Source of the DNA: a virus
Lineage: Duplodnaviria > Caudoviricetes
Direction: 5' to 3' (one strand)
IMG/VR virus record: IMGVR_UViG_3300020477_000013
Coordinates: 32,001 to 96,000 of that record
Length of the DNA stretch: 64,000 bases
The position numbers and the translations under genes are program-made. Each line of letters begins with the position of its first letter. Within the stretch, counting starts at the first letter, position 1. Positions 34,939 to 61,473 of this stretch are shown one piece after another. The notes beneath the pieces are model-generated. The model worked only from the letters and a program-made list of their open reading frames with translations. It searched no databases and was not told the DNA's origin.

Positions 34939-35526
34939 ATGGTCATTGAGTCAGTAATTAGAAACTATGTCAGGGGGTTGCTTTTAGAGAAAGAAGAAGA
35001 AGAGCCACCTACCACAACGGGTCCAGGCCCAGGTCGGTTTAAAAAAGAGCTTAAAGACCTTAAGGCTTTAGCGGATGTTGATCCTGCGAAGCTTATGTCG
35101 AACCTTAATATCTCCGACCCTGGAGGTGATACGGAAGAAGCTTCACTAGAGTCGATACTCAAGAGTGCGGTAGGGGGAACATCAGAGATGAAGGCAGCAT
35201 ATGGATCTCCATCTAAAAAGTCTGACAGTGCCGACCGCATCGGGTATTCGATACCTGTAACAGGCGAAGGAATGTCACCACGTGATGGGCTAGTTTTCAT
35301 AAGGGAGGCATTTAAGGGAGCAAAATCTGTAGGTTATTGGACATGGGATAAAGATATACAGATTGAGCTATTAGGGGGAGATATCTTGGCATATGTTTCT
35401 GAGAGCCCCTTTACGTGGAATAAGGCAAAAAAGGCAAAAAAGGCAAAAAAGGATGATAAGCCTGGTGCTGAGAAAGATAACAAACCTGATGCTGAGAAAG
35501 ATAACAAGCCTGACGAACAAGCATGA
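34939..35526 (+). CDS. hypothetical protein with the N-terminal ES.IR.YVR.LLLE peptide and a repetitive tail
   Basis: Starts MVIESVIRNYVRGLLLEK; SD GGAG; late motif at 34910-34917. Confidence 0.75.
   Translation: MVIESVIRNYVRGLLLEKEEEEPPTTTGPGPGRFKKELKDLKALADVDPAKLMSNLNISDPGGDTEEASLESILKSAVGGTSEMKAAYGSPSKKSDSADRIGYSIPVTGEGMSPRDGLVFIREAFKGAKSVGYWTWDKDIQIELLGGDILAYVSESPFTWNKAKKAKKAKKDDKPGAEKDNKPDAEKDNKPDEQA
35422..35520 (+). repeat. coding tandem repeats (9 nt x3, then imperfect 24 nt x3)
   Basis: AAGGCAAAA x3 (KAKKAKKAKK), then GAT(G/A)A(T/C)AA(G/A)CCTG... x3 (DDKPGAEK DNKPDAEK DNKPDEQ). Confidence 0.85.
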
Positions 35527-36620: not shown

Positions 36621-37025
36621 ATGAATATTTTACGAAGATATATTCGTCAAATTCTGCTAGAGGGCTTAGGGACCGTCAACGTTCCAGACGTGGGTAAAAC
36701 GTCTGTGAAAGATTATAAGTCTTCGATGGATTCATCACTAGCAGCAGGAAAACCAGGTATCAAGCAGGTTACATCGCCAGCCGTCGAAGATAACGGCGAT
36801 AAAGAAAATTTGCTAACCGAGCCAGATGAAATAGAGGATGGTGATAGCCAAGAAGAGGTTAACGCTATTTCTACGGGTGGCGCAGCCATGGCATCTTCCG
36901 GTGCAATTCGAGGTGTTACTACACCCCTAGGGACGGATTCAACTTATCCTTCAAAGAAGAAGAAGAAGAAAAAGAAAGCCTCGAAGAAAGGCGATTCGAA
37001 TTGGTACAAGGCTACCACAAATTAA
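36621..37025 (+). CDS. hypothetical protein with the N-terminal LRRYIRQILLE peptide
   Basis: MNILRRYIRQILLEG; late motif ATACTTAT at 36608-36615; Lys run near the C-terminus. Confidence 0.75.
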   Translation: MNILRRYIRQILLEGLGTVNVPDVGKTSVKDYKSSMDSSLAAGKPGIKQVTSPAVEDNGDKENLLTEPDEIEDGDSQEEVNAISTGGAAMASSGAIRGVTTPLGTDSTYPSKKKKKKKKASKKGDSNWYKATTN

Positions 37026-44061: not shown

Positions 44062-44082
44062 AGGAAAAAAAGAGGTTAGCAG

Positions 44083-44685
44083 ATGAAGTGGGTTTCCAAA
44101 ATATCAGGTTTAATAAAAGAGATAGAGTTAAGAAAAAGCCCGGTGATTATTAGGGTTAATAAATTCGATGAAGAGTCTGCAAAGAAATTTTCACAAGAGA
44201 TGGCATTAGCACATAATACTGGGCAAAAAGTTATTCCCGTTGTAATTGATTCTTACGGGGGCCAAGTTTATTCACTTATGTCAATGATAGCTGCTATTAG
44301 AGATGCTGAGATTCCTGTTGCGACTATAGTCGAAGGAAAGGCGATGTCTTGCGGTGCAGTGCTGCTATCTTTTGGGGAAGACGGATTACGGTTTGCTGAT
44401 CCCCATGCAACGGTAATGATACATGATGTCTCTAGCGGGATGTATGGAAAGGTCGAGGAGCTCAAGGCCGATGTTAAAGAGGCTGAAAGGCTAGACGAAA
44501 AGATATACACAATGATGGCACGAAACTGTGGTAAGAAAGATGACTATTTCAAAAAGAAGGTCTTCAATAAAAAACATGCAGATTGGTTTATGGACGCTGA
44601 AGAAGCAAAGCGTCATGGCTTAGTTAACCACTTAAGGATACCAAAGCTTACAATTGCTGTCGATGTCAGTATAGAGATGGAGTAG
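44083..44685 (+). CDS. clpP: ClpP-family serine protease
   Basis: IDSYGGQV, GKAMSCG (catalytic Ser), MIHD (His), WFMDAEEA...GLV. Confidence 0.88.
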   Translation: MKWVSKISGLIKEIELRKSPVIIRVNKFDEESAKKFSQEMALAHNTGQKVIPVVIDSYGGQVYSLMSMIAAIRDAEIPVATIVEGKAMSCGAVLLSFGEDGLRFADPHATVMIHDVSSGMYGKVEELKADVKEAERLDEKIYTMMARNCGKKDDYFKKKVFNKKHADWFMDAEEAKRHGLVNHLRIPKLTIAVDVSIEME

Positions 44686-44688
44686 CAT

Positions 44689-45591: not shown

Positions 45592-46291
45592 ACTAAGGGT
45601 TGAGTTATATGATGACGGCATAGGGGCTGTTGAGTATGTTTCTCATATGGGTGATGATTTAACGATCGTGAATGCAGCACGTGTGTCTTTTGGCAAGCAC
45701 AAGGAAATACTTGATCAAAAAGATGCTAAGCTGATTAGGTATTTAATCAAACATCGTCATACGTCGACGCTGGAGCATAACATTGTCACTTTTCGCTTTA
45801 CTGTACCTCTTTTCATTCGCAGTCAGCATCATCGTCATCGCACTTGGAGCTACAACGAGATCTCTAGACGGTACACGGACGTTGATATCAAATTCTATGA
45901 AACAAAAGCACTCAGGACTCAACATGCATCAAACCGTCAGGCTTCGAATCCGAATGTTTTGCAAGACCCTATTATAGACCCTGGTGGAATAAGCGGCGGG
46001 AATCATGCCAGCTACCTAATTTCATCTCATCACTCTTCTTCTTTGAGGCTATATAATAAACTACTCGACAATGGCGTCTGTAGAGAACAGGCTCGTGGCA
46101 TTTTGCCCCAAAATATGTACACACAATATTATGGTACTGTGAATTTGAATAACCTGATAAAATTTGTAGAGCTGAGATCGCATGAGGGTGCACAATGGGA
46201 GATTCAGCGTGTCGCTGCTGCATGCATACAAATAGCATCTAGCTTGTGGCCTGAAACAATTTGCGCCTACAAAGAGATTAGGGAAATTTAG
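45581..46291 (+). CDS. thyX: FAD-dependent thymidylate synthase
   Basis: IVNAARVSF, H.STLEH, RSQHHRHRTWSYNEISRRY, EQARGILPQ, AQWEI. Confidence 0.95.
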   Translation: MKPELRVELYDDGIGAVEYVSHMGDDLTIVNAARVSFGKHKEILDQKDAKLIRYLIKHRHTSTLEHNIVTFRFTVPLFIRSQHHRHRTWSYNEISRRYTDVDIKFYETKALRTQHASNRQASNPNVLQDPIIDPGGISGGNHASYLISSHHSSSLRLYNKLLDNGVCREQARGILPQNMYTQYYGTVNLNNLIKFVELRSHEGAQWEIQRVAAACIQIASSLWPETICAYKEIREI

Positions 46292-46329
46292 CCTGTGGAT
46301 TGATAATTATTTCAAGCCCGGGGTGTACG

Positions 46330-49300
46330 GTGAGTTCAGAATTTGCTAGTCTCATAAGAAAATATATTGCAGAAGCCAATGATTATTCATGGGATGTTTC
46401 TAACCGCAAAAATATGTTGCTAGATCAACCTGGGATGGAGCAGGAAGATAAGGATAACACTGAGGAGTACCTAAAGTCAATGGGCTTGATGGAAAATATC
46501 ATCGCTCTTTACTTAAGGGGTATTTTAAGTGAGAAAGAACTACGCGGCCAAAAGAGCAAGCGTACACTCTACCACATTGGCAAACGACCAGCAGAGCCGA
46601 AGCCTGCTGAGCGCTGGGGTGCAAAAGGTGAGGAGGGCTGGTCTAGAGACTGGATAGAGGGCCCTGTTAAGTCTGGAGTTTTTTTAACACCCAATCCAAC
46701 AGATATTGCCTGGAATCACGGCGTCAGCGGCAATGTGTATGCCTATAAGGTTCCACAATGGGTTATTGAAAAATCAGGAGGTGTGAACCGTTTTGATACA
46801 GGCTCAGAGATCCTCATATCACAAGAGATATGGGAAGAGGCTGGGGATGAGATAGAATTCTTAGGCAAGACTATGGGCAAAGATGAGTTATGGGACTCGG
46901 TTGACTCGTCTTATTACAGCTCGAAGCAAAAGAAGGGTGTACGTGGCGCACACAAGCATGATGACGGTGCATCTAGCATCTCAGGGCTTAGATCAACCAA
47001 CCACCCCGAAGCTGCGATCAAGATGATGTCTCAAGAAGAGATCGAGAAAGCCCTAGCAAAATTTGAAAATGAGTACGCACAGGAGGGCCCTGCGGAGGTG
47101 GTCAAGGGCCCGCGAGATAAAAAAGGGCTCGTCATCCCCTACCTTGGCAAGCAACCAAGGGGTAAAGACAAAGAGCTTATTGATCTTCTCAACAAGTACA
47201 TGAAGGAGTCGGTTGTTCGACAGTATATAAAGGATCTGCTTGTAGAGGTCCCACTTGATGACTTTGAGTATGTTTCCAAAGACCACGACGATGTAATGGT
47301 CCGAGAAGAGGTTGCTGATTATTTCAAAGCGATACCACAGAGTGTCAACATCTACGTCGCACATACAGACGATCTTAGCTGGGCACATAGGCTGCCAAAC
47401 GAAATACAGGGCAAGGTATCCGGATTTAAAAGTCGAGGCCAGGTCACCCTTACTGATATTTCAAACATCGGAGAGCTATATCCTCAGATACAGAGGGCTA
47501 TGCACCCAGAAGGAATCAATCTTCTCTACGTCTACCCTAAATCTTTTGAAGTTCCTGCCGGCGGTGATACATTCATTGCTGATGTCAACCCCCACTATTT
47601 GGCTCACGATCTTCATCACATGCTTGAGAATGCCCCCGGCCGTGAAAGAGGAGAAAAAGACAAATTCACTTCTCTTATAAAAGAGTATCTGATGGAGCTG
47701 GTCTGGCTGTCTCACGGTGGCGGGTCGGTGGAAGCTGAGCAAGTGCGAGATACAATGCGGAGAACCGGCCGGCGTCTTGGGGTTGCAAATACAAACCTCT
47801 TGATGAGTGAACTGTTTCCAGGCATCAAACTACCCAGTGGTGACTTCGATCTATTTGGTGATGTCTTTGCTGACTACCTGAAGAACGATGGAAACTTAGT
47901 CCTCGGCGTTCCAGAGCAGCTCGATTATGATGGCACAGTCATTGAATTGAATCCCGGCTCTAAGCACGATCAACGAGCGCAGCAATACGAAAAGAAATTT
48001 AAAGATCTGTTCAATGCAGTATTGGATCCGCTCAAGGGAAAGGTGGCAATGTTCAACATCTTCGAGGTCGAACACCGCGAAGTAGAGCGTGCAAGGAAAC
48101 AAGCCGAAGAGAAAATGCAAGCTGACCATGGCCAACTCATCGACCACATTAAGTCTATGGGCGGAGAGTTTAAGTACTTCGACGAAAGCCACAGAGAAGA
48201 GGGTGTCGAGGAGTTGATATTTGACACCGGTCTCAAGCCTGAAAAGCCGGTCTATGGGATCGAAGAGTTCACCCAACAATTTCCAGAAGAGGCGGCTGGC
48301 ATTGAGGCTTTGGGCTACAAGATAACGAGTGCCTTTGACGGGTTCGGGGGTAGCTCTGTGGAGATTAGGCTGAAGATGGCAGGCATCAAAGAGAGCGTTT
48401 TAAGAAAATATATAAGGCAACTACTCAAAGAAGACCCCATGGGCTTTGTTCACGACCTAGCAGCCTCGGATAAGTTCGGCGATCAGTTTAGGGGTGGCCA
48501 AGTTGGTAAAGATGCTGGTCGAGATATCAAGCGCGCTTTCAACAAAAACGCAGACCACCAATTTCTCAGCACGCTGGATACAGTTCACTGGTTTTACACT
48601 GTTTACGACTTAGAGCCCTTGGTAGGAAAAGGTAAAGATGAACTTTCTGCAACAATGACGCTCCCCGGAGATAGCTTTGACCCAGCCGGTCTTCCATACG
48701 GGCTATGGATTAAGGGCAGAATAACACTGGCTACTAATGAACAAGATAAGATGTACTCCGGATTTTATGGGGACTATGGCGCCGGCTATGAAGGATCAGA
48801 AGAGGAAGTTGCTCATAGAGACCGGTCTTCTGGCAGAAATAAACGGCCATCTGTATCAAAAGATTACAGTCGATACGGCCAGCTCGAACGCGGAAATGAA
48901 TACATGGAGAAGATGGCAAGAGATGGTATTCCCTATATCTTAGATCAGTCAACATGGAATCCAGGTAAGACCAGGTCTAATAATGAGGCGCTGGTAGATA
49001 ATTGGAGGCCTATAGGGATCATTGTTGCAAAGAACGACGTTATAAAAGCTATTCTCAAAGCAGCCAAGAAACTTGCTGGAGAAGGTGGTACCCCACCGAG
49101 CGGTAATATTGCCAAAGACATTAATTATTTTTCGACTGGTGTGACACAAGAGATCATACTAGCAGCCCTACAGTTGGGCGTTCCGATTTATGACACGAGT
49201 CGAACAAAGCTATGGGGCCCTCCCACACACCAGAGTGGAACACAAAAAGAGCTCCGCCAGTACGTAAGAGGGCAGTTAATTTTAGAAGATCGAATCCTCC

Positions 49301-49644
49301 AAGAAAACGTTTTCAAGAAAGCGATTTCATGGGTAAAAGAAAAAGGGCAAGCAGGTATAGAGGCAACCCGCGAATTTCTCACTGACCTAAAAGAAGAGTT
49401 ATCAGAAACTAGGGAGGGAGCAGCACTTCTTACGAAACTAGCTTCTGGTAAAAATTTGTCGCCAGAAGAAACTGGATTTCTAAAACAGCAAGCTAAAGAT
49501 GTAGCGTCAGGTACAGTCCTACTAGGCTTGTTTGCCCTTCCGGGTGGTGGGTTGGCTACTGCAGCCCTTTTAAAAGTAGCAGGAAAAGTAGGTGTTAACC
49601 TTAAACCTACAGCATTTAGAGGGAATGATGAAACTACTTCATGA
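46330..49644 (+). CDS. modular polyprotein: five segments, each opened by an LR.YIR.LL.E-type peptide
   Basis: Peptides at 46339, 46492, 47206, 48391 and 49249. Segments include ART-like (LYHIG...VFLTP...SEIL), HDLHH metallo-motif, a paralogue of 54655-55473, and a LETM1-like C-terminus. GTG 46330 preferred over TTG 46300, which overlaps the late motif. Confidence 0.8.
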   Translation: MSSEFASLIRKYIAEANDYSWDVSNRKNMLLDQPGMEQEDKDNTEEYLKSMGLMENIIALYLRGILSEKELRGQKSKRTLYHIGKRPAEPKPAERWGAKGEEGWSRDWIEGPVKSGVFLTPNPTDIAWNHGVSGNVYAYKVPQWVIEKSGGVNRFDTGSEILISQEIWEEAGDEIEFLGKTMGKDELWDSVDSSYYSSKQKKGVRGAHKHDDGASSISGLRSTNHPEAAIKMMSQEEIEKALAKFENEYAQEGPAEVVKGPRDKKGLVIPYLGKQPRGKDKELIDLLNKYMKESVVRQYIKDLLVEVPLDDFEYVSKDHDDVMVREEVADYFKAIPQSVNIYVAHTDDLSWAHRLPNEIQGKVSGFKSRGQVTLTDISNIGELYPQIQRAMHPEGINLLYVYPKSFEVPAGGDTFIADVNPHYLAHDLHHMLENAPGRERGEKDKFTSLIKEYLMELVWLSHGGGSVEAEQVRDTMRRTGRRLGVANTNLLMSELFPGIKLPSGDFDLFGDVFADYLKNDGNLVLGVPEQLDYDGTVIELNPGSKHDQRAQQYEKKFKDLFNAVLDPLKGKVAMFNIFEVEHREVERARKQAEEKMQADHGQLIDHIKSMGGEFKYFDESHREEGVEELIFDTGLKPEKPVYGIEEFTQQFPEEAAGIEALGYKITSAFDGFGGSSVEIRLKMAGIKESVLRKYIRQLLKEDPMGFVHDLAASDKFGDQFRGGQVGKDAGRDIKRAFNKNADHQFLSTLDTVHWFYTVYDLEPLVGKGKDELSATMTLPGDSFDPAGLPYGLWIKGRITLATNEQDKMYSGFYGDYGAGYEGSEEEVAHRDRSSGRNKRPSVSKDYSRYGQLERGNEYMEKMARDGIPYILDQSTWNPGKTRSNNEALVDNWRPIGIIVAKNDVIKAILKAAKKLAGEGGTPPSGNIAKDINYFSTGVTQEIILAALQLGVPIYDTSRTKLWGPPTHQSGTQKELRQYVRGQLILEDRILQENVFKKAISWVKEKGQAGIEATREFLTDLKEELSETREGAALLTKLASGKNLSPEETGFLKQQAKDVASGTVLLGLFALPGGGLATAALLKVAGKVGVNLKPTAFRGNDETTS

Positions 49645-50422
49645 ATACATAAGGTCGACCCTAATGTCTGAGTCTAGGTTTAAGCAGATATTTAAACCCA
49701 AATTCACAGACTTACGGCAATACTTAGCGGGGTCTTCTTTTTTGGATGCTGACCCTGCCGGTGATCTAGATGAAGACACATGGTCGTCTGAGGCCGCCGT
49801 GGTACTTAGGGACGATTTAAATGATTATTTCGATTCAAAATTTGAGTCTGGTTATTTGACAGCAATTGTGAAGGTTGATATGGGATGGACAGACCCCAAA
49901 GCTGGTAAAGACAGTGTTCTTAAGAATGCGACATATTACTTCAAGGGTGGCCTTCATTTCCTAGAGGTTATGTTAGCAGATATTGATGATGGTTCTGTCA
50001 TAAGGGACATGGGACGCCCTGAGCAAAAGGTTTACGAAGTTATTTTACACGAGCTTTTACACATGCAACAGTTTTTAAGGTTTAGCAAGGGAGAACCCAC
50101 TGATAAAAAGTGGGAACACTTCATGAAAGAGTATCGCCGCCGCGGCGGAGCATCAGGTATGGGTTCAGATTATTTCTTTTTTGACGAACCTGGTGCTGCA
50201 TCTGAACTTGAGACATTTTCGTTGCAAATTGCTATTGAGCTTGTGGATGCTATTGGTCAGGAGGCTGCTGTCGCAATATTAGGGCAACAACCTGATTATG
50301 ACATGATAAGAAGAAATTCCGCATCATTTAGAGATATTGAGAAAGCAGGTAATCTCACATCACGCCCCGAATTTAAAGAGCTGGTTAAAAGGGCGAAGCA
50401 ATACGCGAGGCTATCATCATGA
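49625..50422 (+). CDS. signal-peptide cassette with an HExxH zincin-like metallopeptidase body
   Basis: MMKLLHEYIRSTLMSE; VILHELLHMQQF with downstream ELETFS as candidate third ligand. Confidence 0.7.
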   Translation: MMKLLHEYIRSTLMSESRFKQIFKPKFTDLRQYLAGSSFLDADPAGDLDEDTWSSEAAVVLRDDLNDYFDSKFESGYLTAIVKVDMGWTDPKAGKDSVLKNATYYFKGGLHFLEVMLADIDDGSVIRDMGRPEQKVYEVILHELLHMQQFLRFSKGEPTDKKWEHFMKEYRRRGGASGMGSDYFFFDEPGAASELETFSLQIAIELVDAIGQEAAVAILGQQPDYDMIRRNSASFRDIEKAGNLTSRPEFKELVKRAKQYARLSS

Positions 50423-51231
50423 AATTACTACGTGAATACATAAGAACACTGTTAACCGAGCGTAATACGATGAAGCGCCCAACCGTGGGAGCAATTCTAG
50501 ACGCGATAGATGTTGTCCAAGCAGCCGAAGATGAAGAAGCAAAGAAGAAGGCCTTAAAAAAGCTTGAGAAGTCCCTGGGGTGGAAAGTAGCTAAGATGCT
50601 AGCAGGACCATTCGGCGATGCAGTTAGCATTGCAAAAGATGCCGCTGGAGTATATAAGACATTAAAGGATACAAAGAAGGCTCCTGAAAAGATGGATAAC
50701 CCTATCCTGGACTTACTTCAAGTCGATTCAGGTTATAAAAACATGTTAGACGACTCAGTCGAGTTCGAATTTGATAAAGATATGGTAAGTTATTTAAACA
50801 GCTTACCTCGAGAAGCACCACTTCCTGATATGACCGTGGAGCTTGAGAAATGGATACAGAAGAAGTTTAATAGGGGAATTTCTGGTGCTGATGTAACAGA
50901 GGTTATTTTTCGTAAGCATATAGGAAACTTAATTCGAGAAGCGATTGAAAATGAAAGTCAGTTCCGTGAGCTTTTGGAGGCTGGTCATTTTGATCAAGCC
51001 ATAGCCTTGGCAGATTCATTAGGCATCAGTGGAAGAGAACTACCTTGGACTGGTGAGCTCTTAGAAGATTACGTGTATGAGAAACTGAAGAACATTCCAA
51101 TAGATGCGTACGATGATGCCAAATTAGTTTGGCACCAGGCCAAAATTGATGCGCTAAATGTTCTAGATATTAGTCTAGAAGAGTACATGGGGCCTAGTCC
51201 ACTAATGATGTATTACAACTCTAGACGATAG
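50419..51231 (+). CDS. signal-peptide cassette, two-segment hypothetical
   Basis: MKLLREYIRTLLTE plus an internal copy EVIFRKHIGNLIRE. Confidence 0.75.
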   Translation: MKLLREYIRTLLTERNTMKRPTVGAILDAIDVVQAAEDEEAKKKALKKLEKSLGWKVAKMLAGPFGDAVSIAKDAAGVYKTLKDTKKAPEKMDNPILDLLQVDSGYKNMLDDSVEFEFDKDMVSYLNSLPREAPLPDMTVELEKWIQKKFNRGISGADVTEVIFRKHIGNLIREAIENESQFRELLEAGHFDQAIALADSLGISGRELPWTGELLEDYVYEKLKNIPIDAYDDAKLVWHQAKIDALNVLDISLEEYMGPSPLMMYYNSRR

Positions 51232-51242
51232 AGGGAAATGGT

Positions 51243-51485
51243 ATGAAAATAACAAAGCGACAACTTAAAAATCTTATTCGAGAAGCATTCTGGGACAAGA
51301 AGCCTCCTGCTCCCGCGGCCGGATCGGACAAGTTCATGAACCCCCTGTCAGCAGCGTCGGAGTCCATGAGGGAAGTCATATCAGCTCTATGGGGCCCATG
51401 GGACGATCCTCCCCGGCCTGATTTACTAAAGAAAGCTCAAGCTTTGGCTAAAGAAATTGATGAAGCTTCAAAGGACCAGATATGA
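51243..51485 (+). CDS. signal-peptide cassette, hypothetical
   Basis: MKITKRQLKNLIREA. Confidence 0.75.
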   Translation: MKITKRQLKNLIREAFWDKKPPAPAAGSDKFMNPLSAASESMREVISALWGPWDDPPRPDLLKKAQALAKEIDEASKDQI

Positions 51486-51772
51486 AAATCACCAAACGGC
51501 AACTAAGAAGAATCATCCGAGAAGAAATAGACCACATGACTGGTTTACCAGTGGGTACACCAGTGACCTCGGTTGAGGTTGAGTGGTATGGCCATGAGCA
51601 CACTGAGGGTGAAGGGATTAGCTACGCTGTCCCCACCGAGGTTGTCCTACAGGGTGAGAAGGTGATTCGTAACTATATCGATGGCAAGTTTTACCCTCGA
51701 TACAAGTACCTTATCACGAAGGCAACATGGCGCGAGATCGATGCGCTCATGGGGGATGACTGGAAGCGATGA
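51482..51772 (+). CDS. signal-peptide cassette, hypothetical
   Basis: MKITKRQLRRIIREE; ATGA overlap. Confidence 0.75.
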   Translation: MKITKRQLRRIIREEIDHMTGLPVGTPVTSVEVEWYGHEHTEGEGISYAVPTEVVLQGEKVIRNYIDGKFYPRYKYLITKATWREIDALMGDDWKR

Positions 51773-52035
51773 AAATCACAAAAAGACAACTAAGAAGAAT
51801 CATCAAAGAAGAATTGCGGCATCTGGCTGAGTACGGATCTCGCTATGGCGATCAAGGCGAGCGAGTCACTGCCGATATGAATGATGAAGAAAAAGAGTGG
51901 TTCCAGAAAGGCGTCGAGGCTGGTAGCCATAGAGGATCCGGTTATGATGATATGCCACATCCCACCACCGCCGGCGGAGCCTGGTATGATGCATGGGTGC
52001 TTGGCTTCGAACATGCCAAGTCAGGAGGCTACTAA
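51769..52035 (+). CDS. signal-peptide cassette, hypothetical
   Basis: MKITKRQLRRIIKEE; ATGA overlap. Confidence 0.75.
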   Translation: MKITKRQLRRIIKEELRHLAEYGSRYGDQGERVTADMNDEEKEWFQKGVEAGSHRGSGYDDMPHPTTAGGAWYDAWVLGFEHAKSGGY

Positions 52036-52382
52036 TGAAAATCACAAAAAGACAACTTAGATCGCTGATTCAGGAAATGGCAGATGCTCCCCTAGAGCCA
52101 CCTGCGCAGAACCCAAACGTTCAAATTATCTTAGATCAAATGGAAGAGATGTCAATAGCCGATATTCGAGTCATATGGCAAGCCGCTGCCGATACAACCA
52201 AGCGAAAGCGAAATGAATTAAAGGCCGGTTTCAAAAAAGGTGACCGGGTCCAATGGACTCGTAAGAACGGCTCGCAAGGAGTGGGGACTGTTGTTCGCCG
52301 CGGAGGAAAGTACGTCATGGTTCAACCTGACGGTGATAATCGAACATGGAAAAAATGGCCGGATAGTTTGAGTAAGATATAA
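52035..52382 (+). CDS. signal-peptide cassette with an SH3/KOW-like body
   Basis: True start is ATG 52035 (TAATG overlap): MKITKRQLRSLIQE; FKKGDRVQW...G.GTVVRRGGKYVMV. Confidence 0.7.
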   Translation: MKITKRQLRSLIQEMADAPLEPPAQNPNVQIILDQMEEMSIADIRVIWQAAADTTKRKRNELKAGFKKGDRVQWTRKNGSQGVGTVVRRGGKYVMVQPDGDNRTWKKWPDSLSKI

Positions 52383-52789
52383 TGAAACTACTCCGCGAGT
52401 ACATAAGGGTTTTACTCGAGCAGCCCGATATCGGATTGCCTCCGACGCTGTACCATGCGACTTATGGTCCTTTAGTTGACTCGATCATGTCATCTGGCTT
52501 AGGTGGATCCAGAGATACAATGTGGGAAGATTCTGTGAGAGGTACTGTTTATCTTGCACTAAGTGATGACGTTGCTTATAGCTATGCTGAAACTTCCGAC
52601 GACGCATGGGATAAGTTTGAGACTGATGAAGGGCTGGAGATTGTAGTATTCGAAGTTGACACTTCTCAACTTGATCCATCTAAATTTAACATAGATCAGA
52701 ATGTCATAGATAACGAGGGAGACACTTTAGGGTATTATGGTGTCGTACCTCCTTCTGCGCTTAGGATGATCAGTAGAGTGTACGCATGA
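52382..52789 (+). CDS. signal-peptide cassette with an ADP-ribosyltransferase-fold body (His type, Tpt1/PARP-like)
   Basis: MKLLREYIRVLLE; TLYHAT...SIMSSGL...VYLA...A..YA...VFEVD...VPPSAL. Confidence 0.6.
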   Translation: MKLLREYIRVLLEQPDIGLPPTLYHATYGPLVDSIMSSGLGGSRDTMWEDSVRGTVYLALSDDVAYSYAETSDDAWDKFETDEGLEIVVFEVDTSQLDPSKFNIDQNVIDNEGDTLGYYGVVPPSALRMISRVYA

Positions 52790-53604
52790 AACTACTACGT
52801 GAATACATAAGAAGTCTGCTGATTGAGACTGCGATAGGTCAGTGTTATCCGCATGTCGTTAAGATGGCCAAGGGTTCTTCTCAAGAAGAATTCTCAGACC
52901 TAGCCAGATTCAAAGTAGCTCATGGTAGAGTGACAGACAAGTATTCAGGTGAATCAGTTCTACATGCCTGGGTTGAAAAAGGCGATATGGTTTTCGATTG
53001 GCAGACACATTCCACCAAACCTGATGGTATTCCGAAAGATGTCTACTACGACATGTACGCACCAGAAATCCACAACGAATACACAGCCGAAGAGACCATG
53101 GTCAACTGTTTGAAAAGTGGCCAGGCCGGCCCATGGACTTTGAGAGAGTCTACAGGGATAATAGAAGACGGTTGGCCTGGGGTTACATGGAAAGTCCAGA
53201 ATTATGGGAACGGTATCTCCGTTGTCTTAATGATGAGTGGGCAAAAGATGGGAAGCATCATAGCTCGGGAAGTTTCGCGCTGGAAATACTGTGCCGATGA
53301 CGTAGAGAAGTTAAAGGCACAAGGGTATGATTACGAAGACCCACGCTGGCCATCATTAGGACCTAAACTTTTCGCGGTAGGTAATTCTGCAATCGACCAA
53401 GCATTCCGGGGCCAAGGCTGGGGAAAGAAGATGTATAAAGTCCTGATCGACACCATCCGCCAAGAAGCAGGCCGCCGGGGTGCATTTATCGGCGCAGATG
53501 TATGTACAGGCGGATCAACCTCGAAAGGTGCCTTAGGCGTATGGAGATCATTGGCCAGGGACTATCCATCATCCGGTAACGTAGTCTACGTGGGGCCGAA
53601 ATGA
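52786..53604 (+). CDS. signal-peptide cassette: transglutaminase/papain-like domain plus GNAT acetyltransferase
   Basis: MKLLREYIRSLLIE; GQCY...HG...HAWVE...D; then SAIDQAFRGQGWGKKMY (GNAT motif A). Confidence 0.6.
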   Translation: MKLLREYIRSLLIETAIGQCYPHVVKMAKGSSQEEFSDLARFKVAHGRVTDKYSGESVLHAWVEKGDMVFDWQTHSTKPDGIPKDVYYDMYAPEIHNEYTAEETMVNCLKSGQAGPWTLRESTGIIEDGWPGVTWKVQNYGNGISVVLMMSGQKMGSIIAREVSRWKYCADDVEKLKAQGYDYEDPRWPSLGPKLFAVGNSAIDQAFRGQGWGKKMYKVLIDTIRQEAGRRGAFIGADVCTGGSTSKGALGVWRSLARDYPSSGNVVYVGPK

Positions 53605-54134
53605 AACTACTCCGCGAGTACATAAGGTCACTACTGAGTGAGAGGATAGCATCCACTTATGGTAAGCAGAGCCAGACGCCTGGCAAGAAGAATGTGTACC
53701 GTGGAATGAAACTTACAATGCCTAGCGCATCCCTGGCATCAGCAATTCGCAAGGGTAAAATTAGTGGAGACGAGCGAGCAAGATTAATCCTCGGACAATT
53801 GCAAAATGAGTCCACAGGTGTTTCATGGTCCGAGACTTTTCATACCGCCGTTAGTTTTGCTGATACATGGAGTGCCTCGAATAGAGGTAAAACGATTCAT
53901 GTAATCCTACAGGCTACTATCGACGACGGGCAGGGCTTTGATCCAATTACTACAGGCCAAGAACCTCGGATGTTCTGGGATGAAAACGAAATAAGGATGG
54001 AGCCTGGAGCAACTATACCAATTACAGCGATATATTTATTCATCAAAGGAAAAGATAAATTCGCACCTCAAAAACTACAGTTTCATATTATTACATTGAA
54101 AGACGAAGAAAATCCACTGATGGTGAAAGCATGA
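53601..54134 (+). CDS. signal-peptide cassette with an R-S-E ADP-ribosyltransferase-like body
   Basis: MKLLREYIRSLLSE; VYRG, GVSWS...A.SFA, ENEIR. Confidence 0.65.
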   Translation: MKLLREYIRSLLSERIASTYGKQSQTPGKKNVYRGMKLTMPSASLASAIRKGKISGDERARLILGQLQNESTGVSWSETFHTAVSFADTWSASNRGKTIHVILQATIDDGQGFDPITTGQEPRMFWDENEIRMEPGATIPITAIYLFIKGKDKFAPQKLQFHIITLKDEENPLMVKA

Positions 54135-54655
54135 ACCTATTACGTGAGTACATAAGGGAGTTATTAGGTGAAGGTGTAGAATTCAGGGAGCTTGATTCTC
54201 CCCTGACATATTATCGATCTAGCAATGTAAAGAGACTGGCTTTATGCGATACGTCTGTAGATGAACCTGCCAGCAGGAGTGATCTTTACTTTTCAGAATA
54301 CCAAGAAATGGAATACGTCGGCAGATCTGGTCGAAGATTAAAGAAACCCAGGAAAGGACAGTTGATACCCGGCGTTTCTGATGTCTGCGTTATTGGGTTC
54401 TTGGACTATCACCAGCAAGGCACCACCCGTGATGGTAAGCCAATGTGGTATTTAGACTATATAAAAACTCGTGGAGGCCACGGTGGGCAAAAGGTGGCTA
54501 GCCGTCTAGTAGACGAGTTTTTCAATCGATATGTAACCGATCCAGGTGTACACGTACACTTCGGAAAGATGATGCGTAAGGAGGTTGGCCACCTAAAAGA
54601 TAAGATGGCAAAGAAATACCCTGACAACATCGTCATTGGGGCAAGGAATTACTGA
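54131..54655 (+). CDS. signal-peptide cassette with a GNAT-like body
   Basis: MNLLREYIRELLGE; IGFLDY...WYLDYIKTRGGHGGQKVASRLVDEF. Confidence 0.55.
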   Translation: MNLLREYIRELLGEGVEFRELDSPLTYYRSSNVKRLALCDTSVDEPASRSDLYFSEYQEMEYVGRSGRRLKKPRKGQLIPGVSDVCVIGFLDYHQQGTTRDGKPMWYLDYIKTRGGHGGQKVASRLVDEFFNRYVTDPGVHVHFGKMMRKEVGHLKDKMAKKYPDNIVIGARNY

Positions 54656-55473
54656 TGAACCTACTCCGCGAATACATAAGATCACTTCTGGTTGAAGACG
54701 CAGCTAAGCGCAAACAGTTCGCTCAACACCTTATTGATGCAGGTCACTCTGAGGCAAATTTTGACACGCCTGATGTAGTCGGCCACAGTATTGACAAGGT
54801 GAAGAAGCTCGTTAAGACTGCTCTCGATCAAGGCAAGCTTCTCAAAAAGGCTTTCGCCGAAACTGCAGACAGGGCTTTCCTCGATAGCTTAGTCACAGTT
54901 CACTGGTTCAAAACCAGAAAGACGATGGAGGCATTTTTAGAAGGATCATTTAGTCCCAAGGATGAATTATCAGCCACGGCTTACCTACCGGGTGAAATAA
55001 AAGGCGCCGGCAGGTTTGGTGATTATGGAATCCTTATCAAGGGCCATATCACTCTTTTGGCAAACGACATGGATCAACTCTACACAGGGGCTTCCAGCAC
55101 TTACAATGCAGTGTTTCCTGAAAGAAAGAAGCAGTCTGGCATTAACAAGGGTGTCGAGCAGATATATGAACCAAAAGGTTACGAAGACTATAAGATCGTT
55201 GTGCTTGACGAAGAAGATTGGAACCCCTCTATTGGTGGCTTCCGCAGCTCACAGAATAATGAGGCGCTCGTCGACAACTGGTCTCCGATGGCAATTATCG
55301 TCCCTGACTCTTCAAATCAGCCAGGTTACTGGGATGAAGATTTACAAAAGATGGAACCTGCCGGCCCTGATACAGCGGAAGCCGATATCATTTGGAAACC
55401 GCTACTAGACAAGGCCGGCCTGGATATCCCAGTTATGACAACAAGGGAGCTTGTATCGAGAGGCTGGGTATAA
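54655..55473 (+). CDS. signal-peptide cassette; paralogue of polyprotein segment 4 (possible ART-like fold)
   Basis: MNLLREYIRSLLVE; TVHWF...KDELSAT..LPG...YG..IKG.ITL..N..D..Y.G...NNEALVDNW.P shared with 48433-49050. Confidence 0.75.
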   Translation: MNLLREYIRSLLVEDAAKRKQFAQHLIDAGHSEANFDTPDVVGHSIDKVKKLVKTALDQGKLLKKAFAETADRAFLDSLVTVHWFKTRKTMEAFLEGSFSPKDELSATAYLPGEIKGAGRFGDYGILIKGHITLLANDMDQLYTGASSTYNAVFPERKKQSGINKGVEQIYEPKGYEDYKIVVLDEEDWNPSIGGFRSSQNNEALVDNWSPMAIIVPDSSNQPGYWDEDLQKMEPAGPDTAEADIIWKPLLDKAGLDIPVMTTRELVSRGWV

Positions 55474-55601
55474 AAATAACAAATACAAAGTGTCATGAAG
55501 CATATGCAATGACTATTTATCTAATCAAAACGATATTACATGCATATAATGTTGATAGTGGCTTTGGATATGCTTAGGGCTATGAAAAAACGGGTGGTAA
55601 T

Positions 55602-56234
55602 ATGAGAATAGCAAAAAATCAACTTAGAAGAATCATCAAAGAACAGATGAAGTCTTGGAAAGAACGACAGGCCGAGCTGGACGCATGGGAGAAAAAGCTA
55701 GTTGCTGCACTTCCAAAAGACCCTTCGAAAATGAGTAATGCTGACCACAAAAAAGTTGCACAGCTCTTTATCGATGAATATGGCCTAGATCAAGCAGACG
55801 CTTTTTATGAAGATGACCGAGGTACATTGGCAGACTTAGGGGTTACACCATATCCTGATCTCGAAAACATCCGCATGGCCATCATGATGGCACTGGATAA
55901 AGATCATAAAAAACGAGTTAATGCTTCTCCTCATAAAAAAGAACTTAGGGCCATCGGGGGTGACAGCTACGGTGCAGTCGAGCCTCGTGAGGTAGCGTAC
56001 TTGACATACCAACCTATTCGTAAGGGTGGTAAAGTTGTAGCATTCATGGTCGAAGACAGCGAGACTCCATGGGGTACAATGCCTCTCGGCCATTCAAGCT
56101 TTGTCGTTGATGAACAATGGGCGAAACAGTCCGGGACAACGGTGGACAAGATTATAAAAGTGTTAGAGAAGGGCGGTGCAACTTTGAGAAAGCGCCGTAA
56201 GCCAGTTAAGAGAACAACTCCATACTACGACTAG
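55602..56234 (+). CDS. signal-peptide cassette, hypothetical
   Basis: MRIAKNQLRRIIKEQ; late motif CTATTTAT at 55513-55520. Confidence 0.75.
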   Translation: MRIAKNQLRRIIKEQMKSWKERQAELDAWEKKLVAALPKDPSKMSNADHKKVAQLFIDEYGLDQADAFYEDDRGTLADLGVTPYPDLENIRMAIMMALDKDHKKRVNASPHKKELRAIGGDSYGAVEPREVAYLTYQPIRKGGKVVAFMVEDSETPWGTMPLGHSSFVVDEQWAKQSGTTVDKIIKVLEKGGATLRKRRKPVKRTTPYYD

Positions 56235-57016: not shown

Positions 57017-57460
57017 ATGGAACTTCTTCGTGAGTATGTTAGGACATTATTAGAACAACACACCCAATCAGAGGACCCCTCTTCGGCCGAGCCTTTAAAC
57101 GGTGCTGTGACGGTCGCTGGGATCCCTATTAGCGTTGAAATTGCATCTACTCCAAAATTAAGAAAAGCCGGCCTAATGAACCGAGCGCATCTTGAGCGTG
57201 GAATGCTTTTTTGCTTTCCTGATTGCCGCCCTAGATCATTTTGGATGAAAAATACGCATGTGCCACTGTCGATAGCTTATGCAGATGATAACGGCATTAT
57301 AACAAATATAGAAGACATGGATCCGCATAGTCTCACCGGTGTAAAGTCAATAACTCCAGCTACTTATGCTTTGGAGATGGAGCAGGGGTGGTTTGATAAA
57401 AATGGGGTAGTTCCAGGAGACAAGATTGGGGGTCGCAATGTCAGAAAAAGTAAAAGTTAG
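57017..57460 (+). CDS. DUF192-family protein carrying the N-terminal signal peptide
   Basis: MELLREYVRTLLEQ; VEIA.TP..R..GLM.R....GMLF.F.....SFWMKNT.VPLSIAY.D..G.I..I..M.P......ALEM..GWF. Confidence 0.8.
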   Translation: MELLREYVRTLLEQHTQSEDPSSAEPLNGAVTVAGIPISVEIASTPKLRKAGLMNRAHLERGMLFCFPDCRPRSFWMKNTHVPLSIAYADDNGIITNIEDMDPHSLTGVKSITPATYALEMEQGWFDKNGVVPGDKIGGRNVRKSKS

Positions 57461-59476: not shown

Positions 59477-59486
59477 GAGCTAAATT

Positions 59487-59711
59487 ATGAATGACAATGG
59501 TTTTAAATTTTCAGATGATGTTATTGCGCAGGTTGCAAAACTAATACAGGTTGCAATTCTAACTGGTACTGACATAGTTGATCACTTACGGCAGGTGAGG
59601 CTTAAGTTGACAGGAGATACGCTTTACGTAGATGATGATTATGCTTCATCATTTGAAGACAATATCCAGTCAATGCTTAAGGAGCTTGAAGAGAATGCCA
59701 CAGGCGAGTGA
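59487..59711 (+). CDS. hypothetical protein
   Basis: 74-aa ORF with SD AGGAG. Confidence 0.65.
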   Translation: MNDNGFKFSDDVIAQVAKLIQVAILTGTDIVDHLRQVRLKLTGDTLYVDDDYASSFEDNIQSMLKELEENATGE

Positions 59712-60924: not shown

Positions 60925-61473
60925 ATGAAGATTCCTGCATTGCGAAAGATTATTAGAGAAGAGCTAATAAAGAATTACTTATTCGAATTCGGCGATTGCC
61001 CCGGGACTGATTCATTACCTGACGGCGCAAAAGCCTTGGTGAAAGAAGATGATGATGAGGTCCAGAAAGATGTAGACTATAATGTCGATGCCACTGGCGC
61101 AAAAGTAACAGGAAAGATGGCCAAGGCCATGGACCCTAATGCAAGTGCTAAAGAATTTGCTATTGCTGATGAGAAGATCGATAAGTCAGGTACCCCGAAA
61201 GAGCAGGCAGGGATGTTAGCAAAATTTGCTTTAGATTATGTCGAGGGTGATACCGCTGAAGCTACATCAATATTAAAGTTGGCATCTACAACTGGTATTA
61301 AAGGCCTAGGGACAACGGCTCCTGAAGATGAAGCAGCAGAGGGTGATGCAGCATCCGAAGACGCCGGCGAAGATTTTAAGAAAGGGATGTCTGAAGGGCT
61401 GTCTAAGAGTAGGATGATTGAGATAATCAAAGAAGAGATTGCTAGCCATTATTTAGCCACGATAAGAAAATAG
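60925..61473 (+). CDS. acidic hypothetical protein with the signal-like peptide at both ends
   Basis: N-terminal MKIPALRKIIREE...YLFE and C-terminal LSKSRMIEIIKEE; SD GGAGG; late motif at 60898-60905. Confidence 0.75.
   Translation: MKIPALRKIIREELIKNYLFEFGDCPGTDSLPDGAKALVKEDDDEVQKDVDYNVDATGAKVTGKMAKAMDPNASAKEFAIADEKIDKSGTPKEQAGMLAKFALDYVEGDTAEATSILKLASTTGIKGLGTTAPEDEAAEGDAASEDAGEDFKKGMSEGLSKSRMIEIIKEEIASHYLATIRK

What the first reader, a model, noticed from the sequence alone, without database searches (positions are those of the whole stretch)
46330..56234. Candidate capsid-cargo system: 13 consecutive unrelated genes tagged by a shared amphipathic peptide ending in a protease-type Glu site
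Seen: every gene from 46330 to 56234 begins with M(K/N)LL(R/H)EYIRxLLxE or MKITKRQLxxIIxE, or a variant, and then diverges completely. The tag is also on 34939, 36621, 57017 and 60925, giving 16 gene starts plus about 7 further copies. The array follows a late motif (46303). Established: T4 internal proteins share a 10-residue capsid-targeting sequence (MKTYQEFIAE) that the prohead protease removes after Glu; they are injected with the DNA, and IPI* blocks the GmrSD nuclease. Inference: this is a much expanded, enzymatically diverse version, a packaging tag that lets the phage load any domain into the head and deliver it before gene expression for host takeover or anti-defence. I am not aware of a description for this phage group, but could not search the literature.
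Basis: partly seen in the sequence, partly recalled or inferred. Interest (0 to 1): 0.92.

Follow-up and report, generated by a model that had tools for sequence, protein, structure and literature searches.

The report
Shared leader peptide on phage cargo genes
An uncultured marine T4-like phage puts one of two short N-terminal leader peptides, each ending in the cut site of the T4-type head protease, on about 55 unrelated proteins, which looks like a greatly enlarged version of T4's system for loading proteins into the capsid and injecting them with the DNA.

Summary
All 13 consecutive genes at 46330-56234 begin with leader A (MKLLREYIRxLLxE) or leader B (MKITKRQLRRIIKEE). The 201.6-kb genome has about 55 such genes, roughly 20% of its ORFs.

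What I showed:
- Conservation starts at the ATG and is held at the peptide level; codons vary and flanking DNA is at random identity.
- The cargoes are mutually unrelated.
- The Glu of an [LI]xE site sits at residue 14 in 48 of 55 genes. Across 351 distinct B leaders it is E 341 times and D never.
- The phage is T4-like: gp23 capsid protein, and a gp21 (S77) prohead protease just upstream of the window. Its scaffold-position protein starts MSKLFKEAIAE|A, like T4 gp22 and the T4 capsid-targeting sequence (CTS).
- The leaders recur in at least 35 uncultured contigs, and smaller versions occur in a 484-kb phage and in cultured Flavobacterium phage immuto.
- Orthologous cargo carries different leaders in different lineages.
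- Two cargoes have ADP-ribosyltransferase folds, like T4's packaged Alt.

Best reading (about 0.6): capsid-targeting propeptides removed by the gp21-type protease. Packaging, cleavage and injection are inferred, not shown. This is a new variant of a known kind.

The scan's first readers noted the same leader family in other windows of this genome.

The parts
46330..49644 (+). Long multi-module ORF. It is open from TTG 46300, with a likely GTG start at 46330. It contains five leader copies, each ending in [LI]xE, and looks like a polyprotein of fused tagged modules with a hydrophobic C-terminal segment.
   Evidence: The module at aa 697-982 is paralogous, leader included, to the stand-alone gene at 54655 (35% identity, E 1e-29). 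No Pfam hits for the segments.
46330..46374 (+). Leader copy 1 of the long ORF, MSSEFASLIRKYIAE|A. Its end, YIAE|A, resembles the end of the T4 CTS, FIAE|A.
46486..46533 (+). Internal leader copy 2, LMENIIALYLRGILSE|K
47200..47247 (+). Internal leader copy 3, MKESVVRQYIKDLLVE|V
48388..48432 (+). Internal leader copy 4, KESVLRKYIRQLLKE|D
49246..49287 (+). Internal leader copy 5, KELRQYVRGQLILE|D
49628..50422 (+). Leader-A gene. The cargo has an HExxH motif and a weak SprT-like metallopeptidase hit.
   Evidence: (PF10263, E 8e-4, below the cut-off)
50419..51231 (+). Leader-A gene with a 270-aa cargo of unknown fold. Its start overlaps the previous stop codon.
51243..51485 (+). Leader-B gene, 80 aa, acidic cargo
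51482..51772 (+). Leader-B gene, 96 aa, acidic cargo
51769..52035 (+). Leader-B gene, 88 aa, acidic cargo
52035..52382 (+). Leader-B gene, 115 aa, basic cargo
52382..52789 (+). Leader-A gene. The cargo has an ADP-ribosyltransferase fold closest to Tpt1/KptA, with invariant H25, Y57 and E70. More distant homologs carry other leaders.
   Evidence: Foldseek E 3.6e-5
52786..53604 (+). Leader-A gene. The C-terminal part of the cargo looks like a GNAT acetyltransferase, on weak evidence.
   Evidence: PF00583, E 0.015, below the cut-off
53601..54134 (+). Leader-A gene. The cargo has an R-S-E type ADP-ribosyltransferase fold, with invariant R34, a Ser-rich stretch at residues 71-77 (G73 and W76 invariant) that I read as the S-x-S motif, and E128-x-E130.
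   Evidence: best Z 6.6; almost all of the top 50 rows are ARTs
54131..54655 (+). Leader-A gene. The cargo has a weak GNAT-like hit.
54655..55473 (+). Leader-A gene, paralog of a module of the long ORF
55602..56234 (+). Leader-B variant gene (MRIAKNQLRRIIKE), 210 aa. It is the last gene of the array and follows a 128-nt gap.
57017..57460 (+). Isolated leader-A gene whose cargo is a DUF192 domain, a family widespread in bacteria. This shows the leader fused to an unrelated domain.
   Evidence: (PF02643, E 9e-28, domain at residues 38-137)
36621..37025 (+). Isolated A-like leader gene (MNILRRYIRQILLE)
34939..35526 (+). Isolated weak A-like leader gene (MVIESVIRNYVRGLLLE)
60925..61473 (+). Isolated weak B-like leader gene (MKIPALRKIIREE)
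1870..3663 (+). 597-aa protein in the scaffold position. It starts MSKLFKEAIAE|A and has 19 [LI]xE sites. It is the presumed prohead core that the leaders dock to.
   Evidence: compare T4 gp22 and immuto
3707..5638 (+). gp23-type major capsid protein, with [LI]xE sites at residues 12, 52 and 61 of its N-terminal region
44083..44685 (+). ClpP-family protease. It is the basis of the rival degron reading and is not part of the proposed system.
46305..46312 (+). AATTATTT box 25 nt before the GTG at 46330. The same 8-mer lies 22 nt before the capsid gene start. Candidate late-promoter element.

Best explanation
The two leaders are capsid-targeting propeptides of the T4 type.

Proposed mechanism:
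1. Each leader is a short amphipathic N-terminal helix. It makes the protein co-assemble with the scaffolding core of the prohead before the gp23 shell closes.
2. The gp21-type prohead protease then cuts after the Glu of the terminal [LI]xE. That Glu is residue 14, and many B leaders have a back-up site at residues 19-23.
3. The mature cargo is left inside the head, to be ejected with the DNA into the next host.
4. Long ORFs with internal leaders are polyproteins cut into separate cargoes by the same protease.

Leader A mostly carries enzyme-sized domains: two ADP-ribosyltransferase folds, GNAT-like domains, an HExxH protein and a DUF192 domain. Leader B mostly carries small acidic proteins of about 95 aa.

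Shown here: the leader is a peptide-level module under strong selection, it is fused to unrelated cargo, it ends in the gp21 consensus, and it occurs in phages with a T4-type head machinery.

Inferred, not shown: docking to the core, cleavage, presence in virions, ejection, and a host-takeover or anti-defence role.
For: - Head machinery: gp23 capsid protein, gp21 Peptidase_S77 at genome 30278-30880 (92 bits) and a portal. All four large relatives searched and LR756508 also have gp21.
- T4 precedent: unrelated internal proteins share a 10-residue CTS that is sufficient for packaging and is cut by gp21 after L/I-x-E. IPII and IPIII read MKTYQEFIAE|A.
- Cut site in the leader: the Glu of [LI]xE is at residue 14 in 48 of 55 tagged genes but in 3 of 212 untagged ORFs.
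- Glu specificity: in 351 distinct B leaders position 14 is E 341 times and D 0 times. D is as common as E in the rest of those proteins, and K/R and I/L/V swap freely at other leader positions. In T4, Asp at this position blocks processing.
- A back-up site is present in 209 of 351 B leaders, as described for phiKZ and SPN3US propeptides.
- Scaffold N-termini are conserved: T4 MLKEQLIAE|A, immuto MSNKDLLKQAIAE|A, this phage MSKLFKEAIAE|A. The long ORF starts ..KYIAE|A.
- Leader A matches the T4 CTS at M1, K2, E6 and I8, with Y/F at position 7 and a hydrophobic residue at position 4. Residues 4, 7, 8 and 10 are the mapped T4 determinants.
- Selection acts on the peptide: synonymous codons vary and the flanks are random.
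- Cargoes are unrelated. 406 tagged proteins from many contigs form 182 cargo clusters, while leader identity stays near 75%.
- Orthologous cargo carries lineage-specific leaders.
- Internal leaders mark module borders, and one module equals a stand-alone tagged gene.
- In both AlphaFold models the leader is a separate, low-confidence helix in front of the folded domain.
- Two cargoes have ART folds, like T4 Alt, a packaged ART with gp21-cut propeptides.
- B-like leaders head small genes inside the head module: own p140, and the immuto 73-aa gene.
- No encapsulin or BMC shell gene is present.
Against: - There is no virion proteome, no N-terminal sequencing and no expression timing for any member. 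All strongly tagged phages are uncultured.
- The leaders are longer (14-22 aa) and, for B, far more basic than the 10-aa T4 CTS. Similarity to the T4 CTS is too short to be statistically testable.
- Most B cargoes are small and acidic (median pI 4.6), unlike T4's basic internal proteins. It is unclear why a DNA-filled head would hold about 45 kinds of them.
- [LI]xE is not depleted inside the cargoes (z -0.7).
- The resemblance of head-module proteins to leader B is weak by profile score: 7.2 against 6.5 for the best other ORF, and homologs in relatives score poorly.
- A ClpP-family protease co-occurs in every strongly tagged genome examined.
- Avoidance of Asp could also reflect helix propensity.
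- The late-promoter evidence is thin.
Confidence: 0.6

Rival explanations
1. The leader is a generic docking helix for some hub other than the prohead core. Candidates are a host complex such as RNA polymerase, a membrane or DNA surface, or a phage replication or assembly compartment. On this reading many phage proteins are recruited to one place in the infected cell and are not packaged.
For: - The leaders are strongly amphipathic (muH 0.65-0.69, top 3.5-4.5% of shuffles).
- Leader B is highly basic (+4).
- Most B cargoes are small acidic proteins that look more like early host-takeover ORFs than like T4 internal proteins.
- Short amphipathic N-terminal helices serve as targeting peptides in other systems, for example microcompartment encapsulation peptides (my own knowledge, not tested here).
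- Nothing here shows presence in virions.
Against: - It does not explain why the helix always ends in the gp21 consensus with Glu and never Asp.
- It does not explain in-frame internal copies at module borders.
- It does not explain why the scaffold and head-module proteins carry related N-termini.
- It does not explain why every carrier genome examined has a T4-type head protease.
Confidence: 0.2
2. The leader is a degron or recognition tag for another protease, in particular the phage-encoded ClpP-family protease 2 kb upstream of the array. It would give timed destruction or activation of many phage proteins.
For: - A ClpP homolog lies at window 44083-44685.
- ClpP is present in all five tagged genomes of this clade and in LR756508.
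- N-terminal Met-basic-hydrophobic motifs can be ClpX recognition signals (my own knowledge, not tested here).
Against: - Cultured phage immuto has B-like leaders and gp21 but no ClpP homolog.
- T4 has a CTS system without a ClpP.
- Clp degrons are read by the unfoldase and do not require a fixed [LI]xE Glu.
- Internal copies in long ORFs do not fit an N-terminal degron.
Confidence: 0.07
3. The repeat is a nucleic-acid element and not a peptide: a translation-initiation or re-initiation cassette, or a recombination site for shuffling gene cassettes. The shared peptide would be a by-product.
For: - Many array genes overlap the previous stop codon by 1-4 nt, which suggests translational coupling.
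- 81% nucleotide identity over 45 nt among B leaders could support homologous recombination between cassettes.
- Another first-reader note proposed this reading.
Against: - Amino acids are kept through synonymous changes that include two-base changes (Leu CTA/CTT/CTC/TTA, Arg AGA/CGA). Only 46-62% of identical residues use the same codon.
- Nothing upstream of the ATG is conserved.
- Leaders also occur in frame inside long ORFs and on isolated genes that follow long gaps.
- Across lineages the peptide pattern is kept while the sequence changes.
- Recombination at leaders may well occur, but as a consequence and not as the function.
Confidence: 0.03
4. The genes are one paralogous family whose N-terminus stayed conserved while the rest diverged beyond recognition. 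The leader would simply be the conserved part of a single ancestral protein.
For: - The tandem arrays look like products of duplication.
- Many B genes share an extended KEEKARLLxE stretch beyond residue 15.
Against: - Cargo lengths range from 40 to more than 500 aa.
- Different cargoes have distinct, recognisable domains: DUF192, ART folds of two classes, and GNAT-like and HExxH signatures.
- The same cargo family carries different leaders in different phages.
- There is no detectable similarity among 54 cargoes.
Confidence: 0.03

Closest known systems
[quoted passage not shown]
   Same: - Phage with a gp20/gp21/gp22/gp23-type head.
- Unrelated proteins share a short N-terminal peptide that ends in L/I-x-E.
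- The scaffold N-terminus resembles the tag.
- At least one cargo class is an ADP-ribosyltransferase, as with T4 Alt.
- Reviews already suggest the CTS is a general loading device in T4-like phages (PMC3012670, PMC9026906).
   Different: - About 55 tagged genes, against roughly 4-8 in T4.
- Two distinct leader classes in one genome, with different cargo types.
- Leaders of 14-22 aa, against 10 aa in T4, often with a second cut site.
- Long ORFs with internal leaders.
- Mostly small acidic cargo instead of basic internal proteins.
- Uncultured marine hosts.
- Nothing is verified biochemically.
Propeptide-bearing ejection and inner-body proteins of giant phages phiKZ, 201phi2-1 and SPN3US, cut by a diverged gp21 homolog at S/A-x-E
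   Same: - Dozens of head-internal proteins.
- Cleavage after Glu.
- Multiple cut sites within a propeptide.
- Paralogs with identical N-terminal 15-mers (SPN3US gp53 and gp54, PMC5694885).
   Different: - Those propeptides are mostly longer than 100 residues and are not one shared short tag.
- Their motif is S/A-x-E, not L/I-x-E.
- The cargo families there are paralogous sets and virion RNA polymerase subunits, not arrays of unrelated small genes.
Cargo-loading peptides of encapsulins and encapsulation peptides of bacterial microcompartments
   Same: A short amphipathic helix on otherwise unrelated enzymes directs them into a protein shell. Encapsulin shells share the HK97 fold with phage capsids.
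   Different: - This genome has no encapsulin or BMC shell gene.
- Those peptides are not removed by a protease.
- The shell here is an infectious phage head that also packages DNA.

Membership tests
T4-type CTS-tagged head-internal proteins | Encoded by a phage with a T4-type head assembly module (portal, gp21 S77 protease, scaffold, gp23 capsid protein) | tested here: met
   PF07068 Gp23 E 1e-76; PF03420 Peptidase_S77 92 bits at genome 30278-30880; gene order portal - protease - scaffold-like - capsid protein.
T4-type CTS-tagged head-internal proteins | A short N-terminal peptide shared by otherwise unrelated proteins | tested here: met
   55 genes carry a leader. No BLASTP similarity among cargoes. 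Conservation is at the peptide level.
T4-type CTS-tagged head-internal proteins | The peptide ends in the gp21 cleavage consensus L/I-x-E | tested here: met
   The Glu is at residue 14 in 48 of 55 genes. In 351 B leaders it is E 341 times and D 0 times, with I or V at P3 in 349 of 351.
T4-type CTS-tagged head-internal proteins | Sequence homology to the T4 CTS MKTYQEFIAE | tested here: inconclusive
   Leader A shares M1, K2, E6 and I8, and has Y where T4 has F at position 7. The long ORF and the scaffold end in (Y/A)IAE|A. The peptides are too short for a statistical test. Leader B is not similar.
T4-type CTS-tagged head-internal proteins | The propeptide is removed by the prohead protease during head maturation | not testable with these tools
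   Needs N-terminal or semi-tryptic mass spectrometry, or an in vitro protease assay. The co-folding job gave no answer.
T4-type CTS-tagged head-internal proteins | The protein is present in the prohead and virion and is ejected with the DNA | not testable with these tools
   No cultured member carries the strong leaders. No proteome was found in the literature.
ADP-ribosyltransferase superfamily (cargoes at 52382 and 53601) | ART fold | tested here: met
   52382: Foldseek against Tpt1/KptA, E 3.6e-5, probability 1.0. 53601: VIA best Z 6.6, and nearly all top-50 rows are ARTs; Foldseek alone was not significant.
ADP-ribosyltransferase superfamily (cargoes at 52382 and 53601) | Conserved catalytic triad (H-Y-E or R-S-E) | tested here: met
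   Invariant H25, Y57 and E70 in alignment A2. Invariant R34, E128 and E130, plus G73 and W76 within a Ser-rich stretch, in A1. Assignment of these residues to catalytic roles is by position pattern and is not structure-verified.
ADP-ribosyltransferase superfamily (cargoes at 52382 and 53601) | NAD-dependent transferase activity and its target | not testable with these tools
   Needs an enzyme assay.
Encapsulin or BMC cargo-loading systems | A cognate shell protein gene (Linocin_M18 or BMC domain) in the genome | tested here: not met
   No PF04454 or PF00936 match at E<=0.1. The record is estimated to be 73% complete.

The most novel reading that the evidence does not exclude
A widespread clade of uncultured marine T4-like phages uses a modular 'address code'. 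At least two orthogonal cleavable leaders per genome, with different leaders in different lineages, load more than 50 different proteins into the head. That is about a fifth of the genes and includes NAD-dependent transferases. The virion would then deliver a large pre-made effector proteome ahead of gene expression. Leaders A and B would address different cargo classes, copy numbers or sub-compartments, and the shared leader would also act as a hot spot for rapid cargo exchange.
Probability: 0.35. Interest if true: 0.9.

Novelty: new variant of a known kind. Interest (0 to 1): 0.74.

Why it matters
If the leaders are true capsid-targeting propeptides, these phages carry by far the largest known set of packaged, injected proteins organised by a simple readable tag. 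That would have three consequences:

- Dozens of 'hypothetical' ORFs per genome would become a predictable class, namely virion-delivered effectors. This gives a sequence rule for finding such proteins in metagenomes.
- It would provide a rich pool of candidate anti-defence and host-takeover proteins, including two ADP-ribosyltransferase types.
- It would supply new short tags for loading foreign proteins into phage heads, as the T4 CTS already does.

It would also show how a targeting peptide co-evolves with the head machinery while cargo turns over. The cultured Flavobacterium phage immuto has a small version of the system, so the idea is directly testable.

Tried and rejected
- **Co-folding of the gp21 homolog with the first 40 residues of a B-tagged protein**: no answer, score 0.00. 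This counts neither for nor against.
- **Megablast of the array against cultured and GenBank phages:** no match.
- **tblastn of the leaders against the phage collection:** only one weak hit, to uncultured LR756508.
- **PHROGs on ten cargoes:** nothing.
- **Pfam:** only DUF192 was significant.
- **My first IMG/VR pattern for leader A** covered only the MN.. variant and found nothing. I did not repeat it. A leaders were instead found with the profile in loci fetched for B and in G002.
- **T4 late box TATAAATA:** 3 on + against 6 on -, so not used here.
- **Sigma-70 scan:** 42 sites against 37.9 expected, uninformative.
- **ClpP co-occurrence as a discriminator:** it failed within the clade because both proteases are always present. 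Only immuto separates them.
- **Depletion of [LI]xE in cargo:** not seen.
- **Profile link between leader B and head-module proteins:** weak. I report it as a resemblance only.
- **Foldseek alone on the 53601 model:** not significant. The ART call rests on the uniform VIA list plus conserved residues.
- **Not run:** the large representative-protein search and the sequencing-run tools, because neither could show packaging or cleavage.

Full report
**What the window is.** The 64-kb window is bases 32001-96000 of a 201,585-bp IMG/VR virus record estimated to be 73% complete.
- It encodes a gp23-type major capsid protein at window 3707-5638 (PHROG 138 at 3e-71; Pfam Gp23 at 1e-76).
- Just upstream of the window lie a portal gene and a Peptidase_S77 (T4 gp21) prohead protease at genome 30278-30880 (92 bits).
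- The nearest relatives by capsid protein and protease are the uncultured 484-kb phage LR756508, Flavobacterium phage immuto and Microcystis phage Mel-JY01, followed by cyanomyoviruses and T-even phages.

So this is a distant member of the T4 superfamily. Homologs come from Tara and other environmental assemblies, so I take it to be marine.

**The observation.** Every one of the 13 consecutive + strand genes from 46330 to 56234 begins with one of two peptides.
- Leader A is M(K/N)LLREYIRxLLxE.
- Leader B is MKITKRQLRRIIKEE.
- The first gene carries the variant MSSEFASLIRKYIAE.
- Further copies head the genes at 57017 (strong), and at 36621, 34939 and 60925 (weaker).

Genome-wide there are about 55 tagged genes out of 269 non-overlapping + strand ORFs, covering 12.7% of the DNA. 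They include a second array of about 30 B genes at genome 146-161 kb. Strong profile hits occur only on the coding strand and essentially only at start codons.

**Peptide or DNA?** Conservation starts exactly at the ATG. Mean pairwise nucleotide identity is 0.68 (A) and 0.81 (B) inside the leader, against 0.28-0.30 in the 45 nt before it and in the cargo. Identical residues use the same codon only 46-62% of the time. Leu alternates among CTA, CTT, CTC and TTA, and Arg between AGA and CGA. Selection is therefore on the peptide.

**Are the cargoes unrelated?** After residue 24, 54 cargoes give no BLASTP hit to each other at E<0.01. The single hit is a nested internal leader within one long ORF. 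Cargo types differ by leader:
- A cargoes are enzyme-sized, with a median of 186 aa and mixed pI.
- B cargoes are small and acidic, with a median of 95 aa and a median pI of 4.6.

**The cut site.** T4 gp21 cuts after Glu in L/I-x-E. The 10-residue CTS of IPIII is sufficient for packaging, its residues 4 and 7 matter for targeting and residues 8 and 10 for processing, and Asp at position 10 blocks processing (PMC9026906).
- Here the Glu of an [LI]xE site falls at residue 14 in 48 of 55 tagged proteins, against 3 of 212 untagged ORFs.
- Among 351 distinct B leaders from this and related phages, position 14 is E 341 times and D never. In the rest of the same proteins D (1332) is as frequent as E (1172). 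K/R swap at 10-30% of basic positions and I/L/V swap at the hydrophobic ones.
- E14, L8 and I12 are the three most constrained positions.
- 209 of 351 B leaders have a second [LIVM]xE with its Glu at residues 19-23. This is reminiscent of the redundant sites in phiKZ and SPN3US propeptides.
- The leaders are significantly amphipathic.
- In two AlphaFold models the leader forms a separate, low-confidence N-terminal helix in front of the folded domain.

**Links to the head machinery.** Real T4 sequences read IPII/IPIII MKTYQEFIAE|A, gp22 MLKEQLIAE|A and gp24 MAKINELLRE|S.
- This phage's 597-aa protein in the scaffold position starts MSKLFKEAIAE|A and has 19 [LI]xE sites.
- Immuto's scaffold-position protein starts MSNKDLLKQAIAE|A.
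- The end of the scaffold propeptide, and so very probably the protease specificity, is therefore conserved across the superfamily.
- The long ORF that opens the array starts ..LIRKYIAE|A.
- Leader A matches the T4 CTS at M1, K2, E6 and I8, with an aromatic residue at position 7 and a hydrophobic one at position 4. This is suggestive but too short to test.
- The gene right after gp21 starts MSKISKSKLKTLIKE. It is the best B-profile match among 213 untagged ORFs, but only by a small margin, and its homologs in relatives score poorly. I treat that as a resemblance only.

**Polyproteins.** The 1114-aa ORF at 46300/46330-49644 contains five leader copies, ending at residues 25, 78, 316, 711 and 996. 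The module that begins at the fourth copy is paralogous, leader included, to the stand-alone gene at 54655 (35% identity, E 1e-29). A 551-aa B gene at genome 153296-154951 likewise has an internal B leader. In-frame internal leaders at module borders fit protease processing. They do not fit a translation-start element or an N-terminal degron.

**Distribution.**
- The exact B peptide heads genes in 53 loci from about 35 IMG/VR contigs, many of them 130-290 kb long. Those loci hold 359 B and 4 A leaders, 97% of them at M or V start codons.
- Pooled with this genome's genes, 406 tagged proteins fall into 182 cargo clusters, 119 of them singletons.
- Leader identity is 73-78% for cargo pairs that are only 25-55% identical, and 75% for unrelated cargoes.
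- The complete 293-kb relative G002 has at least 41 tagged genes in the same layout.
- All four large relatives searched have gp21.

**Leader follows lineage, not cargo.** Close homologs of the 52382 cargo carry leader A. More distant ones carry MKxLMENWRxYLKE or MRKxIDxFKxF.IKE. Contigs of that other lineage show runs of adjacent unrelated genes starting MKQLMENWR(R/K)(F/Y)(L/V)xE. LR756508 has its own sets: MRLSERKLRRIVKEE, and the T4-length MRLKEILLE|N. The cultured immuto has MKKSQLRQIIKE.. on several unrelated genes and on a 73-aa head-module gene, plus MENFDLKKFLVE|N on four genes. This is what one expects if the leader must fit the lineage's own core and protease.

**Cargo functions.**
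- 52382-52789 has an ADP-ribosyltransferase fold nearest to Tpt1/KptA (Foldseek E 3.6e-5), with invariant H25, Y57 and E70.
- 53601-54134 gives modest scores (best Z 6.6), but almost all of the top 50 structural neighbours are ARTs: TreX, PltA, LT, Scabin, pertussis S1 and PARPs. It has invariant R34, a Ser-rich stretch at residues 71-77 (G73 and W76 invariant) and E128-x-E130.
- 57017 carries a DUF192 domain.
- 49628 has an HExxH motif with a weak SprT hit. 52786 and 54131 have weak GNAT hits.
- T4's Alt is a packaged ART with gp21-cut propeptides, so the ART cargoes fit the model.

**Rivals.**
- ClpP degron: a ClpP-family protease lies 2 kb upstream of the array and co-occurs in all strongly tagged genomes, so a degron reading cannot be excluded by co-occurrence. 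But immuto has B-like leaders and gp21 without any ClpP, T4 has a CTS without ClpP, and a degron explains neither the fixed [LI]xE Glu nor the internal copies.
- Capsid-independent docking helix: this remains the main rival, because nothing shows presence in virions and the small acidic B cargoes are unlike T4's basic internal proteins.
- Encapsulin or BMC loading: excluded for lack of a shell gene.

**Expression.** The canonical T4 late box is not used. A strand-biased [AT]ATATTTA motif (23 against 5) precedes 13 ORFs, several of them structural genes. AATTATTT lies 22 nt before the capsid gene and 25 nt before the GTG at 46330. The following array genes abut or overlap, so they are probably co-transcribed. 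This is consistent with late expression but is not proof.

**Literature.** The T4 CTS concept, and the suggestion that it is a general loading device, are published (PMC3012670, PMC9026906, PMC5694885). Searches found no description of expanded leader arrays in marine or uncultured T4-like phages. A review of cyanomyoviruses reports that alt, gp67 and gp68 are lacking and does not mention internal proteins (PMC2984593). The library covers only open-access papers.

**Verdict.** The leaders are certainly functional peptide modules. My best reading, at about 0.6, is that they are capsid-targeting propeptides removed by the gp21-type protease, which makes this a greatly expanded, two-address variant of the T4 CTS system. 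Packaging, cleavage and injection remain to be shown, and immuto offers a cultured test bed.

Noticed in passing
window 1596-1820 (+): A 74-aa, very basic ORF inside the head-assembly module, just before the scaffold-like gene, is a ribosomal protein bS21 homolog (PF01165, 37.1 bits, above the 27-bit cut-off). From my own knowledge, phage-encoded S21 is known from marine phages. Its position among the head genes is unusual.
   Followed up: partly
genome-wide; for example window 1839, 6110, 12554, 19285: The strand-biased motif [AT]ATATTTA (23 on + against 5 on -) lies within 60 nt upstream of 13 ORF starts, several of them structural genes. It is a candidate late-promoter box that replaces T4's TATAAATA, which is not enriched.
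   Followed up: partly
window 58249-60084 (+): A base-excision and nucleotide-sanitising cluster: an HhH-GPD glycosylase (58249-58683), an Fpg/Nei glycosylase with all three domains (58676-59476), and a protein with a below-cut-off dUTPase_2 match that may be MazG-like (59632-60084).
   Followed up: no
window 60081-60740 (-): A haemolysin-III family membrane protein (PF03006, E 9e-34) is the only clear minus-strand gene in this part of an otherwise one-strand genome.
   Followed up: no
window 3707-5638 (+): The gp23-type capsid protein is 643 aa long and matches the Pfam Gp23 model in two stretches, with the best one at residues 377-633. It therefore carries a long Gly/Ser-rich insertion or extension in its N-terminal half compared with T4 gp23, which is 521 aa.
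   Followed up: no
window 41575-46291 (+): A block of nucleotide-metabolism and lysis genes lies directly before the array: a ribonucleotide reductase with a TSCPD domain (828 aa), a ClpP-family protease, an Amidase_2 endolysin with a weak, below-cut-off PG-binding-domain match, and ThyX.
   Followed up: partly
L065 (ENA contig k141_1170648) 5661-11280 and L067 8135-14886: A different marine phage lineage has runs of adjacent unrelated genes that start MKQLMENWR(R/K)(F/Y)(L/V)xE, with one B-type MKITKKELKKIVKEE gene among them. Neighbouring genes include Mom, HSP20, patatin, Acb5-like and DnaJ.
   Followed up: partly
genome 153296-154951 (outside the window): A 551-aa B-leader gene contains a second in-frame B leader at genome 153980. 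It is another polyprotein-like fusion.
   Followed up: partly
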